The position numbers and the translations under genes were made by a program. Shown piece after piece: positions 49,081 through 58,600 of a stretch of DNA of 64,000 nucleotides. The DNA lies in assembly GCF_009914755.1 (NCBI RefSeq), contig NC_060931.1. One strand, 5' to 3'. Source of the stretch: the human T2T-CHM13v2.0 reference genome, Homo sapiens. The notes below the pieces were generated by a model that was not told where the DNA came from, ran no database searches, and saw only the letters and a program-made list of their open reading frames with translations. Position 1 is the first letter of the stretch, and every line of letters starts with the position of its first letter.

Positions 49081-52000
49081 TGATACAGTTTGGCTCTGTG
49101 TCCCTATCCAAATCTCATCTTGAATTGTAATCCCCACGTATTGAGGGGAGGGAGACTCTTGGATCATGAGGGTGATTTAACCATGCCATTCTCTGCTAGT
49201 GAGTGAGATCTTATGAGATGTGATGGTTTTGCAAGTGTTTGACAGTTCCTCTTTCACAAACTCTCTCTCCTGCTGCCTTGTGAAGAAGGTACCTGCATAA
49301 GGTGTAAGGAAGGGATCCAGTTTCAGCTTTCTACATATGGCCAGCCAGTTTTCCCAGCACCATTTATTAAATAGGGAATCCTTTCCCCATTGCTTGTTTT
49401 TCTCAGGTTTGTCAAAGATCAGATAGTTGTAGATATGCGGCATTATTTCTGAGGGCTCTGTTCTGTTCCATTGATCTATATCTCTGTTTTGGTACCAGTA
49501 CCATGCTGTTTTGGTTACTGTAGCCTTGTAGTATAGTTTGAAGTCAGGTAGTGTGATGCCTCCAGCTTTGTTCTTTTGGCTTAGGATTGACTTGGTGATG
49601 CGGGCTCTTTTTTGGTTCCATATGAACTTTAAAGTAGTTTTTTCCAATTCTGTGAAGAAAAACATTGGTAGCTTGATGGGGATGGCATTGAATCTGTAAA
49701 TTACCTTGGGCAGTATGGCCATTTTCATGATATTGATTCTTCCTACCCATGAGCATGGAATGTTCTTCCATTTGTTTGTATCCTCTTTTATTTCATTGAG
49801 CAGTGGTTTGTTGTTCTCCTTGAAGAGGTCCTTCATGTCCCTTGTAAGTTGGATTCCTAGGTATTTTATTCTCTTTGAAGCAATTGTGAATGGGAGTTCA
49901 CTCACGATTTGGCTCTCTGTTTGTCTGTTATTGGTGTGTAAGAATGCTTGTGAATTTTGTACATTGACTTTTTATCCTGAGACTTTGCTGAAGTTGCTTA
50001 TCAGCTTAAGGAGATTTTCGGCTGAGATGATGGGGTTTTCTAGATATACAATCATGTCATCTGCAAACAGGGACAATTTGACTTCCTCTTTTCCTAATTG
50101 AATACCCTTTATTTTCTTCTCCTGCCTAATTGCCCTGGCCAGAACTTCCAACACTATGTTGAATAGGAGTGGTGAGAGAGGGCATCCCTGTCTTGTGCCA
50201 CTTTTCAAAGGGAATGCTTCCAGTTTTTGCCCATTCAGTATGATATTGGCTGTGGGTTTGTCATAGGTAGCTCTCATTATTTTGAGATATGTCCCATCAA
50301 TACCTAATTTATTGAGAGTTTTTAGCATGAAGCATTGTTGAATTTTGTCAAAGGCCTTTTCTGCATCTTTTGAGATAATCATGTGGTTTTTGTCTTTGAT
50401 TCTGTTTATATGCTGGACTACATTTACTGATTTGCATATATTGAAACAGCCTTGCATCCCAGGGATGAAGCCCACTTGATCATGGTGGATAAGCTTTTTG
50501 ATGTGCTGCGGGATTCGGTTTGCCAGTATTTTATTGAGGATTTTTGCATCAATGTTCATCAGGGATATTGGTCTAAAACTCTCTTTTTTGGTTGTGTCTC
50601 TGCCCGGCTTTGGTATCAGGATGATGCTGGCCTCATAAAATGAGTTAGGGAGGATTCCCTCTTTTTCTATTGATTGGAATAGTTTCAGAAGGAATGGTAC
50701 CAGTTCCTCCTTGTAACTCTGGTAGAATTCGGCTGTGAATCCATCTGGTCCTGGACCCCTTTTGTTGCTAAGCTATTGATTATTGCCACAATTTCAGATC
50801 CTGTTATTGGTCTATTCAGAGATTCAACTTCTTCCTGGTTTAGTCTTGGGAGAGTGTATGTGTCGAGGAATTTATCCATTTCTTCTAGATTTTCTAGTTT
50901 ATTTGCATAGAGGTGTTTGTAGTATTCTCTGATGGTAGTTTATTTCTGTGGGATCGGTGGTGATATCCTCTTTATCATTTTTTATTGCATCTATTTGATT
51001 CTTCTCTCTTTTTTTCTTTATTAATCTTGCTAGCAGTCTATCAATTTTGTTGATCCTTTCAAAAAACCACCTCCTGGATTCATTAATTTTTTGAAGGGTT
51101 TTTTTGTGTCTCTATTTCCTTCAGTTCTGCTCTGATTTTAGTTATTTCTTGCCTTCTGGTAGCTTTTGAATGTGTTTGTTCTTGCTTTTCTAGTTCTTTT
51201 AACTGTGATGTTAGGGTGTCAATTTTGGATCTTTCCTGCTTTCTCTTGTGGGCATTTAGTGCTATAAATTTCCCTCTACACACTGCTTTGAATGTGTCCC
51301 AGAGATTCTGGTATGTTGTGTGTTTGTTCTCGTTGGTTTCAAAGAACATCTTTATTTCTGCCTTCATTTCGTTATGTACCCAGTAGTCATTCAGAAGCAG
51401 GTTGTTCAGTTTCCATGTAGTTGAGTGGTTTTGAGTTAGTTTCTTAATCCTGAGTTCTAGTTTGATTGCACTGTGGTCTGAGAGACAGTTTGTTATAATT
51501 TCTGTTCTTTTACATTTGCTGAGGAGAGCTTTACGGATTAAAGACTGAAACGTTAGACCTAAAACCATAAAAACCCTAGAGGAAAACCTAGGCTTTACCA
51601 TTCAGGACATAGGCATGGGCAAGGACTTCATGTCTAAAACACCAAAAGCAATGGCAACAAAAGACAAAATTGACAAATGGGATCTAATTAAACTAAAGAG
51701 CTTCTGCACAGCAAAAGAAACTACCATCAGAGTGAACAGGCAACCCTCAAAATGGGAGAAAATTTTTGCAACCTACTCATCTGACAAAGGGCTAATATCC
51801 AGAATCTACAATGAACTCAAACAAATTTACAACAAAAAAACAAACAACCCCATCAAAAAGTGGGCGAAGGACATGAACAACACTTCTCAAAAGAAGACAT
51901 TTATGCAGCCAAAAAACACATGAAAAAATGCTCACCATCACTGGCCATCAGAGAAATGCAAATCAAAACCACAATGAGATACCATCTCACACCAGTTAGA

Positions 52001-55602: not shown

Positions 55603-58600
55603 ATGACAGGATCAAATTCACACATAAGAATATCAACTTTAAATGTAAATGGACTAATTGCTCCAATTAAAAGACACAGACTGGCAAATTGGATAAAGAG
55701 TCAAGACCCATCAGTGTGCTGTATTCAGGAAACCCATCTCACGTGCAGAGACACACATAGGCTCAAAATAAAAGGATGGAGGAAGATCTACCAAGCCAAT
55801 GGAAAACAAAAAAAGGCAGGGGTTGCAATCCTAGTCTCTGATAAAACAGACTTTAAACCAACAAAGATCAAAAGAGACAAAGAAGGCCATTACATAATGG
55901 TAAAGGGATCAATTCAACAAGAAGAGCTAACTATCCTAAATATATATGCACCCAATACAGGAGCACCCAGATACATAAAGCAAGTCCTGAGTGACCTACA
56001 AAGAGACTTAGACTCCCACACATTAATAATGGGAGACTTTAACACCCCACTGTCAACATTAGACAGATCAATGAGACAGAAAGTCAACAAGGATACCCAG
56101 GAATTGAACTCAGCTCTGCACCAAGCGGACCTAATAGACATCTACAGAACTCTCTACCCCAAATCAACAGAATATACATTTTTTTCAGCACCACACCACA
56201 CTTATTCCAAAATTGACCACATACTTGGAAGTAAAGCTCTCCTCAGCAAATGTAAAAGAGCAGAAATTATAACAAACTATCTCTCAGACCACAGTGCCAT
56301 CAAACTAGAACTCAGGATTAAGAATCTCACTCAGAACTGCTCAACTACATGGAAACTGAACAACCTGCTCCTGAATGACTACTGGGTACATAATGAAATG
56401 AAGGCAGAAATAAAGATGTTCTTTGAAGCCAACGAGAACAAAGACCCCACATAACAGAATCTCTGGGACGCATTCAAAGCAGTGTGTAGAGGGAAATTTA
56501 TAGCACTAAATTCCAACAAGAGAAAGCAGGAAAGATCCAAAATTGACACCCTAACATCACAATTAAAAGAACTAGAAAAGCAAGAGCAAACACATTCAAA
56601 AGCTAGCAGAAGGCAAGAAATAACTAAAATCAGAGCAGAACTGAAGGAAATAGAGACACAAAAAAACCCTTCAAAAAATTAATGAATCCAGGAGGTGGTT
56701 TTTTGAAAGGATCAACAAAATTGATAGACCGCTAGCAAGACTAATAAAGAAAAAAAGAGAGAAGAATCAAATAGACGCAATAAAAAATGATAAAGGGGAT
56801 ATCACCACCGATCCCACAGAAATACAAACTACCATCAGAGAATACTACAAACACCTCTACACAAATAAACTAGAAAATCTAGAAGAAATGGATAAATTCC
56901 TCGACACGTACACTCTCTCCCAAGACTAAACCAGGAAGAAGTTGAATCTCTGAATAGACCAATAACAGGATCTGAAATTGTGGCAATAATCAATAGCTTA
57001 CCAACCAAAAAGAGTCCAGAACCAGATGGATTCACAGCCAAATTCTACCAGAGTTACAAGGAGGAACTGGTACCATTCCTTCTGAAACTATTCCAATCAA
57101 TAGAAAAAGAGGGAATCCTCCCTAACTCATTTTATGAGGCCAGCATCATTCTGATACCAAAGCCAGGCAGAGACACAACCAAAAAAGAGAATTTTAGACC
57201 AATATCCTTGATGAACATTGATGCAAAAATCCTCAATAAAATACTGGCAAACCGAATCCCACAGCACATCAAAAAGCTTATCCACCATGATCAAGTGGGC
57301 TTCATCCCTGGGATGCAAGGCTGGTTCAATATACGCAAATCAATAAATGTAATCTAGCATATAAACAGAGCCACAGACAAAAGCCACATGATTATCTCAA
57401 TAGATGCAGAAAAGGCCTTTGACAAAATTCAACAACCCTTCATGCTAAAAACTCTCAATAAATTAGGTATTGATGGGACGTATCTCAAAATAATAAGAGC
57501 TATCTATGACAAACCCACAGCCAATATCATACTGAATGGGCAAAACCTGGAAGCATTCCCTTTGAAAACTGGCACAAGACAGGGATGCCCTCTCTCACCA
57601 CTCCTATTCAACATAGTGTTGGAAGTTCTGGCCAGGGCAATTAGGCAGGAGAAGGAAATAAAGGGTATTCAATTAGGAAAAGAGGAAGTCAAATTGTCCC
57701 TGTTTGCAGATGACATGATTGTATATCTAGAAAACCCCATCATCTCAGCCGAAAATCTCCTTAAGCTGATAAGCAACTTCAGCAAAGTCTCAGGATAAAA
57801 AAATCAATGTACAAAAATCACAAGCATTCTTACACACCAATAACAGACAAACAGAGAGCCAAATCATGAGTGAACTCCCATTCACAATTGCTTCAAAGAG
57901 AATAAAATACTTAGGAATCCAACTTAAAGGGATGTGAAGGACCTCTTCAAGGAGAACTACAAACTACTGCTCAAGGAAATAAAAGAGGACACAAACAAAT
58001 GGAAGAACATTCCATGCTCATGGGTAGGAAGAATCAATATCATGAAAATGGCCATACTGCCCAAGGTAATTTACAGATTCAATGCCATCCCCATCAAGCT
58101 ACCAATGTCTTTCTTCACAGAATTGGAAAAAACTACTTTAAAGTTCATATGGAACCAAAAAAGAGCCCGCATCACCAAGTCAATCCTAAGCCAAAAGAAC
58201 AAAGCTGGAGGCATCATGCTACCTGACATCAAACTATACTACAAGGCTACAGTAACCAAAACAGCATGGTACTGGTACCAAAACAGAGATACAGACCAAT
58301 GGAACAGAACAGAGCCCTGAGAAATAATGCCACATATCTAAAACTATCTGATCTTTGACAAACCTGACAAAAACAAGCAACGGGGAAAGGATTCCCTGTT
58401 TAATAAATGGTGCTGGGAAAACTGGCTAGCCATATGTAGAAAGCTGAAACTGGATCCCTTCCTTACACCTTATACAAAAATCAGTTGAAGATGGATTAAA
58501 GACTTAAACGTTAGACCTAAAACCATAAAAACCCTAGAAGAAAACCTAGGCTTTACCATTCAGGACATAGGCATGGGCAAGGACTTCATGTCTAAAACAC

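What the first reader, a model, noticed from the sequence alone, without database searches (positions are those of the whole stretch)
49297..58560. Two neighbouring L1s of different subfamilies share private, even inactivating, mutations: patchwork gene conversion
Seen: the inverted arm 49297-51534 is the reverse complement of 56231-58473. Against my recalled L1PA2/PA3/Hs consensus, both copies carry the same unusual changes: +1 A frameshift in ETQK (7 A at 56660-56666, 7 T at 51099-51105); GGAGCTGG>GGAGGTGG (56695/51070); GAGGTAC>GAGTTAC (57054/50716); NRIQQ>NRIPQ (57260/50510); SAQN>SAEN (57751/50019); KVSGY>KVSG* stop (57796-57798/49972-49974); TTATAC>TTACAC (57833/49938); ATGACT>ATGT.. (58108/49662). 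In the direct-repeat part both read GGCTTTACC (58552/51594). Between these sites the copies keep different subfamily diagnostics (TNY/TNC, KNL/KKL, GGGACGC/GGGACAC, AGAG/AGAA, and different 3'UTR types) and they have different TSDs. Inference: an ORF2 stop plus frameshift cannot come from an active master acting in cis, so the best explanation is many short non-allelic gene-conversion tracts between two L1s under 5 kb apart.
Basis: partly seen in the sequence, partly recalled or inferred. Interest (0 to 1): 0.8.

Follow-up and report, generated by a model that had tools for sequence, protein, structure and literature searches.

The report
Patchy gene conversion between neighbouring L1s
Two dead L1 retrotransposons that landed independently about 1 kb apart share a handful of otherwise rare mutations in short patches, most likely because one copy was used to repair the other; this is a clear example of a process already known for neighbouring repeats.

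Summary
Element A (49297-52695) is a 5'-truncated, 5'-inverted L1 with its own target-site duplication (TSD). Element B (53617-59695) is a full-length L1 with a different TSD. A's inverted segment is 96.1% identical to B 56231-58476, no closer than unrelated genomic copies: 45 of 58 panel copies are nearer to B than A is.

They include the +1 A frameshift and the stop after KVSG. Of 1769 other pairs, 1676 share 0 or 1. The only pairs reaching 8 belong to an older subfamily.

The sharing is patchy. In 200-bp windows over 56531-56829, 57579-57927 and 57978-58176, B is A's strict nearest relative. Elsewhere it ranks 40th-58th of 59. The two differ at 14 non-CpG lineage sites, so a common source does not fit. 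Genome searches found no third copy with more than 2 of the 8 alleles.

Best reading (about 0.7) is old non-allelic gene conversion between the inverted homologous arms, in tracts of at most about 50-500 bp. Timing, direction and number of events are unresolved. The shared allele in the direct-repeat part is not significant. This is a known kind of event and of modest interest.

The parts
49286..49296 (+). 5' copy of the target-site duplication of element A (AAGGTACCTGC). Its last 3 bases overlap the start of L1 homology.
   Evidence: Read. It matches 52696-52706 at 10 of 11 positions. The flanks 49088-49225 and 52704-52866 match adjacent parts of one older repeat copy at 9229-8841.
49294..51534 (-). 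Element A, inverted 5' segment. It is the reverse complement of L1 ORF2 sequence equivalent to B 56231-58476.
   Evidence: 96.128% over 2247 columns. Translation of 49975-50772(-) aligns to residues 466-730 of human L1 ORF2p, chain 8uw3_A, E=6e-159. The frame is broken in several places.
51535..52695 (+). Element A, direct 3' segment: end of ORF2, 3'UTR and a (TAA)n/A tail, equivalent to B 58493-59657. Sixteen L1 bases (B 58477-58492) are missing at the inversion junction 51534/51535.
   Evidence: columns 0-15 are gaps in A.
52696..52706 (+). 3' copy of the target-site duplication of element A (AAGGTAACTGC).
53602..53616 (+). 5' copy of the target-site duplication of element B (GAAAAATAAAATTTC).
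   Evidence: It matches 59696-59710 at 14 of 15 positions.
53617..59695 (+). Element B, a full-length L1 of 6079 bp: 5'UTR, ORF1-sized open frame 54415-55539, a broken ORF2, 3'UTR and a tail.
   Evidence: ORF2 is cut into frames 55576-56454, 56455-56682, 56654-56929, 56896-57357, 57358-57798, 57915-58226, 57928-58320 and 58489-59433.
59696..59710 (+). 3' copy of the target-site duplication of element B (GAAAAAGAAAATTTC).
56607..56729 (+). Patch 1 (= A 51036-51158). 123 bp are identical in A and B, holding the extra A (56660-56666), T 56680 and G 56695.
   Evidence: In the genome search only A and B are 100% identical. Three other copies are 99% and lack only the extra A.
57041..57149 (+). Patch 2 (= A 50621-50729). 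109 bp are identical, holding T 57054. Weak on its own.
   Evidence: Four other genomic places are also 100% identical. Hard bounds from lineage sites are 57020 and 57150.
57209..57260 (+). Patch 3 (= A 50510-50561). 52 bp are identical, ending at C 57260. B then carries a private A at 57261, where the shared C had created a CpG.
   Evidence: The genome search gave 27 candidates, all scored, with A, B and two others at 99% or more.
57656..57865 (+). Patch 4 (= A 49906-50114). A 142-bp identical run 57656-57797 is followed by 57799-57865 with three private differences (57798 in B; 57803 and 57817 in A). It holds G 57751, A 57799 (stop TAA at 57796-57798 in B, 49972-49974 in A), C 57833, and the shared minority alleles 57711, 57741, 57742 and 57841.
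   Evidence: A and B are mutual strict nearest neighbours in the windows 57579-57927.
57991..58216 (+). Patch 5 (= A 49554-49779). Identical runs of 118 and 107 bp are split by one A-private base (58109). It holds T 58108 and the shared minority alleles 58042 and 58174.
   Evidence: A and B are mutual nearest neighbours in window 57978-58176.

Best explanation
Shown here: two L1 retrotransposons were inserted independently on the same strand about 0.9 kb apart.
- A is 5'-truncated, and its 5' part is inverted in the way twin priming produces.
- B is full length.
- A's inverted 2.2-kb ORF2 segment and the matching part of B therefore form an inverted repeat with a 4.7-kb spacer.
- A and B share 8 alleles that are rare among other L1 copies.
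- The similarity between them is patchy.
- They differ at lineage sites.

Inferred: after both were in place and already decaying, homologous repair between the two arms copied short stretches from one copy into the other. This could have followed fold-back pairing on one chromatid, or pairing between sister chromatids. Private mutations of one copy thus became shared, among them a frameshift and a stop codon. The sequence between the patches kept each copy's own lineage alleles.

At least five patches lie within B 56607-58216, each at most about 50-500 bp long. They may come from several events, or from one long heteroduplex or template-switching event with patchy repair.

Both copies have added private mutations inside the patches since, so the exchange is old. 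Neither copy can encode ORF2p, so the process has no function.
For: 1. Independent insertions. Each element has its own TSD (A 10 of 11 positions, B 14 of 15), its own tail, and A interrupts an older repeat.
2. Shared rare alleles. A and B share 8 alleles present in 0-4 of 58 other copies. Of 1769 other pairs, 1676 share 0-1, and only two old-subfamily pairs reach 8.
3. No overall closeness. A and B differ at 87 of 2247 columns. 34 of 58 panel copies are closer to A than B is, and 45 of 58 are closer to B than A is.
4. Mosaic signal. B is the strict nearest neighbour of A in 7 of 42 windows of 200 bp, and ranks 40th-58th of 59 in most others. Among 2385 ordered pairs with overall rank 20 or worse, no other pair reaches 7; the next best is 6.
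5. Identity runs. There are five identity runs of 100 bp or more against 1.5 expected (P=0.0046). All five hold or abut a shared rare allele.
6. Different sources. The two differ at 14 non-CpG sites where both alleles are carried by at least 5 panel copies. At the 15 such sites in the 3' part, A carries the minority allele at 13 and B at 2.
7. Genome-wide searches with the patches. Each rare allele occurs in a few other copies. Only A and B appear in all five hit lists. The two other copies examined with 57260 C each carry one further allele: L061 has the extra A, and the chr1 copy has 57833 C.
8. Known precedent. Alu-Alu gene conversion is reported to be elevated within about 10 kb (passages in PMC6598467 and PMC8230782, citing Aleshin & Zhi 2010). 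Human non-crossover tracts of about 55-290 bp mean length (Jeffreys & May 2004, as quoted there) and roughly 100-1000 bp, and clustered discontinuous tracts, are reported in PMC4404656 (passages read). Both fit the distance and patch sizes here.
Against: - No orthologous ape sequence or other human haplotype could be examined, so the pre-conversion state, direction and date are not shown.
- The longest identity run (142 bp) is not longer than chance gives (P=0.25). A classical run-length test would not call a tract.
- Within the largest region free of lineage differences (57484-57926), A and B still differ at 11 private sites. That is nearly the density seen elsewhere, so the exchange must be almost as old as the elements.
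- Direction looks mixed. 57484 C and 57841 T are alleles of A's relatives, while 57751 G is carried by B's relatives L002, L004 and L006.
- The shared rare substitutions are 6 transversions to 1 transition. The private ones are 35 transitions to 19 transversions. Conversion of ordinary private mutations does not predict this.
- Two other copies carry 2 of the 8 alleles, so a small sublineage contribution to some sites is not excluded.
- The genome searches score only 40 candidates per query and are not exhaustive.
Confidence: 0.7

Rival explanations
1. Common source. A and B are siblings, or parent and daughter, from one rare L1 source that was possibly defective and mobilised in trans and already carried the eight alleles. 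They lie next to each other by chance or through local re-insertion.
For: - The shared alleles include changes found at low frequency elsewhere: 57751 G in L002, L004 and L006; 57799 A in 4 of 58; 57260 C in about 7 young copies.
- Two other copies carry 2 of the 8 alleles.
- B is full length with a 5'UTR and could once have been transcribed.
Against: - A and B differ at 14 non-CpG lineage sites in the inverted part and at 15 further common-polymorphism sites in the 3' part.
- Their affinity is confined to patches, and B ranks among A's most distant panel members in between.
- All eight shared alleles fall within 1610 bp (56607-58216). None lies in 56231-56606 or 58217-58476, and at most one, not significant, lies in the 1128-bp direct part.
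- No other genomic copy was found with more than 2 of the 8.
- Two such siblings landing within 1 kb of each other in a 3.1-Gb genome by chance is very unlikely.
Confidence: 0.12
2. Third donor or more complex exchange. Both elements were converted in patches by another L1, or the pattern comes from two crossovers (inversion and re-inversion of the spacer) rather than simple conversion.
For: - Direction appears mixed within 360 bp.
- A has no private allele at all in B-equivalent 58110-58427 and is identical there to panel copy L049. That could be a separate overwrite by another copy.
Against: - No other genomic place appears in more than two of the five patch searches, and none nearby on chr7 appears in more than one.
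- The present arrangement has canonical TSD pairs for both elements, so any inversions must have been even in number.
- B's unusual haplotype at 58217-58398 is an existing lineage haplotype, seen in chr15 copy L067, and not a swap with A.
Confidence: 0.1
3. Chance or hypermutable sites. The same mutations arose twice independently.
For: - The extra A sits in a homopolymer and recurs (2 of 58, plus L061).
- The stop allele is carried by 4 of 58 and by a chrX copy.
- Every shared allele is seen in some other copy genome-wide.
Against: - Six of the seven shared substitutions are transversions away from CpG, and four are carried by 0 of 58.
- The empirical null gives 0-1 shared rare alleles for 1676 of 1769 pairs.
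- The sharing coincides with the long identity runs.
Confidence: 0.03
4. Assembly or polishing artefact in T2T-CHM13 that copied bases between the two arms.
For: None from these tools.
Against: - The arms are only 96% identical, and private differences lie within a few bases of shared alleles (57798/57799/57803, 58108/58109, 57260/57261). Read mis-mapping would not produce single-base sharing of that kind.
- This rival was not tested directly.
Confidence: 0.03

Closest known systems
Non-allelic (interlocus) gene conversion between neighbouring retrotransposon copies, best documented for Alu (Aleshin & Zhi 2010, as cited in PMC6598467 and PMC8230782)
   Same: Independent insertions less than 10 kb apart share non-diagnostic mutations while keeping their own subfamily markers. 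Detection rests on the same logic: an excess of shared private alleles.
   Different: Here the partners are L1 ORF2 segments of 2.2 kb in inverted orientation, one of them the inverted part of a twin-priming-type insertion. At least five patches are involved rather than one tract within a 300-bp element.
Clustered, discontinuous non-crossover gene-conversion tracts in human meiosis (PMC4404656, passages read)
   Same: Several short converted stretches lie within a few kb, separated by unconverted markers. Tract sizes are of the order of 100-1000 bp. The proposed causes are the same: patchy repair of long heteroduplex, or repeated template switching.
   Different: Those events are allelic, seen in pedigrees and GC-biased. 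This one is non-allelic and ancient. Its shared alleles show no GC bias: 2 weak-to-strong, 2 strong-to-weak and 3 neutral, counted by me from the table.
Recombinant or mosaic L1 sequences (bioRxiv 10.64898/2026.05.14.725010, methods passage read: 35 recombinant calls among 2267 full-length L1 consensus sequences)
   Same: L1 copies whose segments have different nearest relatives.
   Different: Those calls concern mosaics between donor lineages, found with 3SEQ and BOOTSCAN. Here the mosaic partner is the physical neighbour, and the shared alleles are private to the pair.
Arm-to-arm gene conversion in palindromes and inverted segmental duplications (e.g. Y-chromosome palindromes, PMC8600007; search listing and abstract only)
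   Same: Inverted repeats on one chromosome exchange sequence without rearranging the spacer.
   Different: Palindrome arms are kept above 99.9% identical by frequent conversion. Here the arms stay 3.9% different and only about a quarter of their length shows exchange.

Membership tests
Non-allelic gene conversion between dispersed repeats | The two copies are of independent origin, not a duplication of one another | tested here: met
   Separate TSD pairs (A 10 of 11, B 14 of 15), separate tails, and A sits inside an older repeat. 14 non-CpG lineage differences.
Non-allelic gene conversion between dispersed repeats | Excess of shared non-diagnostic (private) alleles relative to other family members | tested here: met
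   8 shared alleles carried by 0-4 of 58 panel copies. Null: 1676 of 1769 pairs share 0-1.
Non-allelic gene conversion between dispersed repeats | Mosaic relatedness: the partners are nearest relatives inside tracts and ordinary relatives outside | tested here: met
   B is the strict nearest neighbour of A in 7 of 42 windows against an overall rank of 35 of 59. This is the most extreme of 2385 distant ordered pairs.
Non-allelic gene conversion between dispersed repeats | Identity tracts longer than chance (GENECONV-type test) | tested here: inconclusive
   Longest run 142 bp, P=0.25. Five runs of 100 bp or more, P=0.0046.
Non-allelic gene conversion between dispersed repeats | Orthologous locus in an outgroup shows the unconverted state | not testable with these tools
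   No primate genomes are held. Only the window's own genome could be searched.
L1 insertion with 5' inversion (twin priming) | An inverted 5' segment joined to a direct 3' segment, the two adjacent in L1 coordinates with a small deletion or duplication at the junction, the whole flanked by one TSD and ending in a tail | tested here: met
   Inverted segment = B 56231-58476 and direct segment = B 58493 to the end, with 16 nt missing. TSD at 49286-49296 and 52696-52706. Tail at 52664-52695. That these features define twin priming is recalled (Ostertag & Kazazian 2001), not read here.
Full-length L1 (element B) | 5'UTR start, ORF1, ORF2, 3'UTR, tail and TSD | tested here: met
   6079 bp between TSD copies. 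The 5' end reads GGAGAAGGAGCCAAGATGGCC. ORF1-sized frame at 54415-55539.
Retrotransposition-competent L1 | Intact ORF2 | tested here: not met
   In both elements ORF2 is cut by several stops and frameshifts.
   No repeat library was available. Only relative lineage differences against 58 genomic copies were established.

The most novel reading that the evidence does not exclude
All the patches were made in one event, a single 1.6-kb heteroduplex or multiple-template-switch repair between the inverted arms. That event may have been triggered by the integration of the second L1 next to the resident one. It would be a natural germline record of patchy mismatch correction between sequences about 4% diverged, written into two datable fossils.
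Probability: 0.12. Interest if true: 0.55.

Novelty: new member of a known kind. Interest (0 to 1): 0.35.

Why it matters
The locus is a clean, checkable example of two things.
- Decayed L1 copies a few kb apart exchange sequence.
- Shared "private" mutations, including stops and frameshifts, can therefore mislead subfamily assignment, divergence-based dating and source-element inference.

The patch sizes and the 4% divergence of the partners bear on how tolerant human germline homologous repair is of mismatches. Gene conversion between neighbouring repeats is already established, so this does not open a new question. Its main use would be as one data point in a genome-wide survey of L1-L1 conversion.

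Tried and rejected
- Common source or parent-daughter origin was rejected as the main explanation because of the lineage-site differences and the patchy affinity.
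- I considered a reciprocal swap of the outer segment 58110-58476 by two crossovers. There, B looks 'older' and carries 5-6 private alleles while A carries none. I dropped the idea because B's haplotype in that segment exists elsewhere (chr15 copy L067 differs from B only at 5 private sites), and because a single inversion is incompatible with the canonical TSD pairs.
- I considered a third member of the exchange on chr7. The copy 203 kb upstream (L061) shares only the extra A and 57260 C. The copy about 12 kb downstream (chr7:115080113) appears in none of the five patch searches.
- The PRDM9 13-mer hotspot motif gave 0 matches in the window, with 0.38 expected.
- No GC bias is seen among the shared alleles (my count).
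- The run-length test for a single long tract is not significant.
Only short pieces of seven were read. Co-occurrence of the rare alleles elsewhere therefore rests mainly on comparing hit lists, each of which scores 40 candidates.
- The first MAFFT run timed out and was repeated with faster settings.

Full report
**Anatomy**

The finding spans two L1 elements.

Element A:
- It has an inverted segment (49294-51534) that is the reverse complement of B 56231-58476, at 96.128% over 2247 columns.
- This is joined directly to a direct segment (51535-52696) matching B 58493-59657, at 94.678% over 1165 columns.
- Sixteen L1 bases (B 58477-58492) are missing at the junction.
- The whole is flanked by AAGGTACCTGC (49286-49296) and AAGGTAACTGC (52696-52706) and ends in a (TAA)n/A tail.
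- Its flanks are adjacent parts of an older repeat, as shown by a second copy at 8841-9229.
- This is the structure usually ascribed to twin priming. That attribution is recalled from Ostertag & Kazazian 2001 and was not read here.

Element B:
- It is full length (53617-59695) between GAAAAATAAAATTTC (53602-53616) and GAAAAAGAAAATTTC (59696-59710).
- It has an ORF1-sized open frame and an ORF2 cut into at least eight pieces.
- A's ORF2 is also broken.

The translated A frame 49975-50772(-) aligns to residues 466-730 of human L1 ORF2p (8uw3_A, E=6e-159). It reads NRIPQ and SAEN and ends after KVSG.

The 'inverted arm' is therefore part of an ordinary 5'-inverted L1. Both elements point the same way at their 3' ends. 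They are independent insertions about 0.9 kb apart.

**The observation**

The window's own genome could be searched. With each arm as query I obtained 58 other L1 copies spanning the whole 2.2 kb. Each search scored 40 candidates, out of 9607 and 12228 first-look candidates respectively.

B is 93.6-97.2% identical to these copies. By column differences, 45 of 58 are closer to B than A is, and 34 of 58 are closer to A than B is. A and B differ at 87 columns. There is no overall excess similarity.

Even so, A and B agree against the panel majority at 18 sites. At eight of them the shared allele is carried by 0-4 of the 58 copies:
- extra A at 56660: 2
- G 56695: 0
- T 57054: 0
- C 57260: 0
- G 57751: 3
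- A 57799: 4
- C 57833: 1
- T 58108: 0

. The 7-A run and the TAA stop were read directly.

Applying the same count to the 1769 other pairs gives: 0 in 1382 pairs, 1 in 294, 2 in 58, 3 in 19, 4 in 6, 5 in 5, 6 in 2, and 7, 8 and 9 in one pair each. All pairs with 6 or more lie within the old-subfamily group L033/L038-L044, where subfamily markers count as rare.

One shared rare allele is what 322 of 1652 other pairs also show. That part gives no evidence.

**Mosaic structure**

- In 200-bp windows, B is the strict nearest neighbour of A across 56531-56829, 57579-57927 and 57978-58176. That is 7 of 42 windows.
- A is also B's nearest neighbour in the latter two regions.
- In most other windows B ranks 40th-58th of 59.
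- Among 2385 ordered pairs whose overall rank is 20 or worse, no other pair reaches 7 such windows. The next best are 6 (L002/L006) and 5.
- The 87 differences are over-dispersed. There are five identity runs of 100 bp or more against 1.5 expected (P=0.0046), and all five hold or abut a shared rare allele.
- The longest run (142 bp) is not itself unusual (P=0.25).

**Different sources**

Among 84 panel-polymorphic columns (minor allele in at least 5 copies), A and B differ at 14 non-CpG sites.
- A carries the allele of the older group and its near relatives at 56279, 56325, 57150, 57370, 57436, 57437 and 57975.
- B carries minority alleles at 56448, 57020, 57383, 57990, 58296, 58368 and 58398.
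- In the 3' part they differ at 15 further common-polymorphism sites. A carries the minority allele at 13 of these and B at 2.

These lineage sites bound the patches:
- patch 1 lies between 56448 and 57020
- patch 2 between 57020 and 57150
- patch 3 between 57150 and 57370
- patch 4 between 57437 and 57933
- patch 5 between 57990 and 58218

Each patch is therefore at most about 130-570 bp long. If private differences are also taken as bounds, the patches are only 52-142 bp.

**Is there a sublineage?**

I searched the genome by reference with the five patches.
- Patch 1: only A and B are 100% identical. Three copies at 99% carry G 56695 and T 56680 but not the extra A.
- Patch 2: four other places are 100% identical.
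- Patch 3: all 27 candidates were scored. Two others reach 99%. One lies on chr7, 203 kb upstream (L061); the other is on chr1.
- Patch 4: a chrX copy (L062) shares 57742 A, the B-private extra A at 57798, 57799 A and 57841 T. It lacks 57751 G and 57833 C.
- Patch 5: two others are 100% identical.

Comparing coordinates across the five lists, only A and B occur in all five. The chr1 copy occurs in two lists and carries 57260 C and 57833 C only. L061, read in full, carries the extra A and 57260 C only.

Finding each allele in a few of roughly ten thousand copies is what recurrent mutation predicts. No copy with three or more of the eight was seen. The lists are not exhaustive, since 40 candidates are scored per query, so a very small sublineage contributing some sites cannot be excluded.

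**Mechanism**

The best reading is non-allelic gene conversion between the inverted homologous arms, which are separated by a 4.7-kb spacer.

The literature fits this:
- Conversion among Alu copies is reported to rise within about 10 kb (passages in PMC6598467 and PMC8230782, citing Aleshin & Zhi 2010).
- Human non-crossover tracts are about 100-1000 bp long. Clustered discontinuous tracts occur and are ascribed to patchy repair of long heteroduplex or to template switching (PMC4404656, passages read).

Steps shown: independent insertion, shared rare alleles, mosaic affinity and differing lineage alleles.

Steps inferred: that DNA-level copying produced the sharing, its age, and the number of events.

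Points against, or unexplained:
- In the largest region free of lineage differences (57484-57926), A and B still differ at 11 private sites. The exchange must therefore be nearly as old as the elements.
- Direction looks mixed. 57484 C and 57841 T are alleles of A's relatives, while 57751 G is carried by B's relatives L002, L004 and L006.
- The shared substitutions are 6 transversions to 1 transition, against 35 transitions to 19 transversions among private ones.
- There is no GC bias among the shared alleles (my count).
- There is no PRDM9 13-mer in the window.

**Novelty**

Gene conversion between neighbouring retroelements is established, and recombinant L1s are reported (35 calls among 2267 sequences in bioRxiv 10.64898/2026.05.14.725010, methods passage read). 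My four literature searches did not turn up a description of this locus or a systematic L1-L1 neighbour survey. Subscription journals are not covered by those searches.

I rate this a new member of a known kind, with interest about 0.35. It is a clear and testable case, and a useful caution for L1 dating and subfamily assignment, but not surprising to a specialist.

Noticed in passing
window 49343-49660 (= B 58110-58427): A has no private allele at all over 318 bp and is identical there to panel copy L049. Elsewhere it carries about 1.5% private alleles (roughly 4.7 expected here). This could be chance or a separate overwrite by another L1.
   Followed up: partly
window 58217-58398: B carries a minority haplotype (T-G-C-A-C-G at 58217, 58218, 58296, 58332, 58368 and 58398) that is absent as a whole from the 58-copy panel. 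It is present in a chr15 copy (L067), which differs from B only at 5 private sites. B's source lineage is itself a mosaic or was poorly sampled by the panel.
   Followed up: yes
window 56660-58108 (the eight shared sites): The shared rare substitutions are 6 transversions to 1 transition, whereas private substitutions in A and B are 35 transitions to 19 transversions. Unexplained.
   Followed up: no
L062 (G000:C23:146505566-146505681): A chrX L1 copy shares with B the stop-making A at 57799 and also the extra A at 57798, which is private to B in the panel, plus 57742 A and 57841 T. Once the A run is lengthened it seems prone to slippage, or there is a small sublineage.
   Followed up: partly
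window 53256-54436: The RefSeq 'enhancer' features overlap the 5'UTR of element B (from 53617) and an upstream (CA)n run at about 53288-53330. The annotated enhancer is largely L1 promoter sequence.
   Followed up: no
window 59627-59695 and 52664-52695: Both tails are (TAA)n-rich, and T at the matching tail columns is common in the panel. B's tail also holds about 20 non-A bases (59669-59688) followed by a run of A. This may be a very short 3' transduction or a decayed tail.
   Followed up: no
window 13724-14629 (-): Another L1 3' end fragment, 87.7-89.6% identical to the 3' parts of B and A. It shows no sign of exchange with them.
   Followed up: no
L061 (G000:C7:114855645-114857905): An L1 copy 203 kb upstream on the same chromosome is identical to B over B 57209-57323, including C 57260 and A 57261, and has the extra A at 56660. 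It has none of the other six shared alleles.
   Followed up: yes
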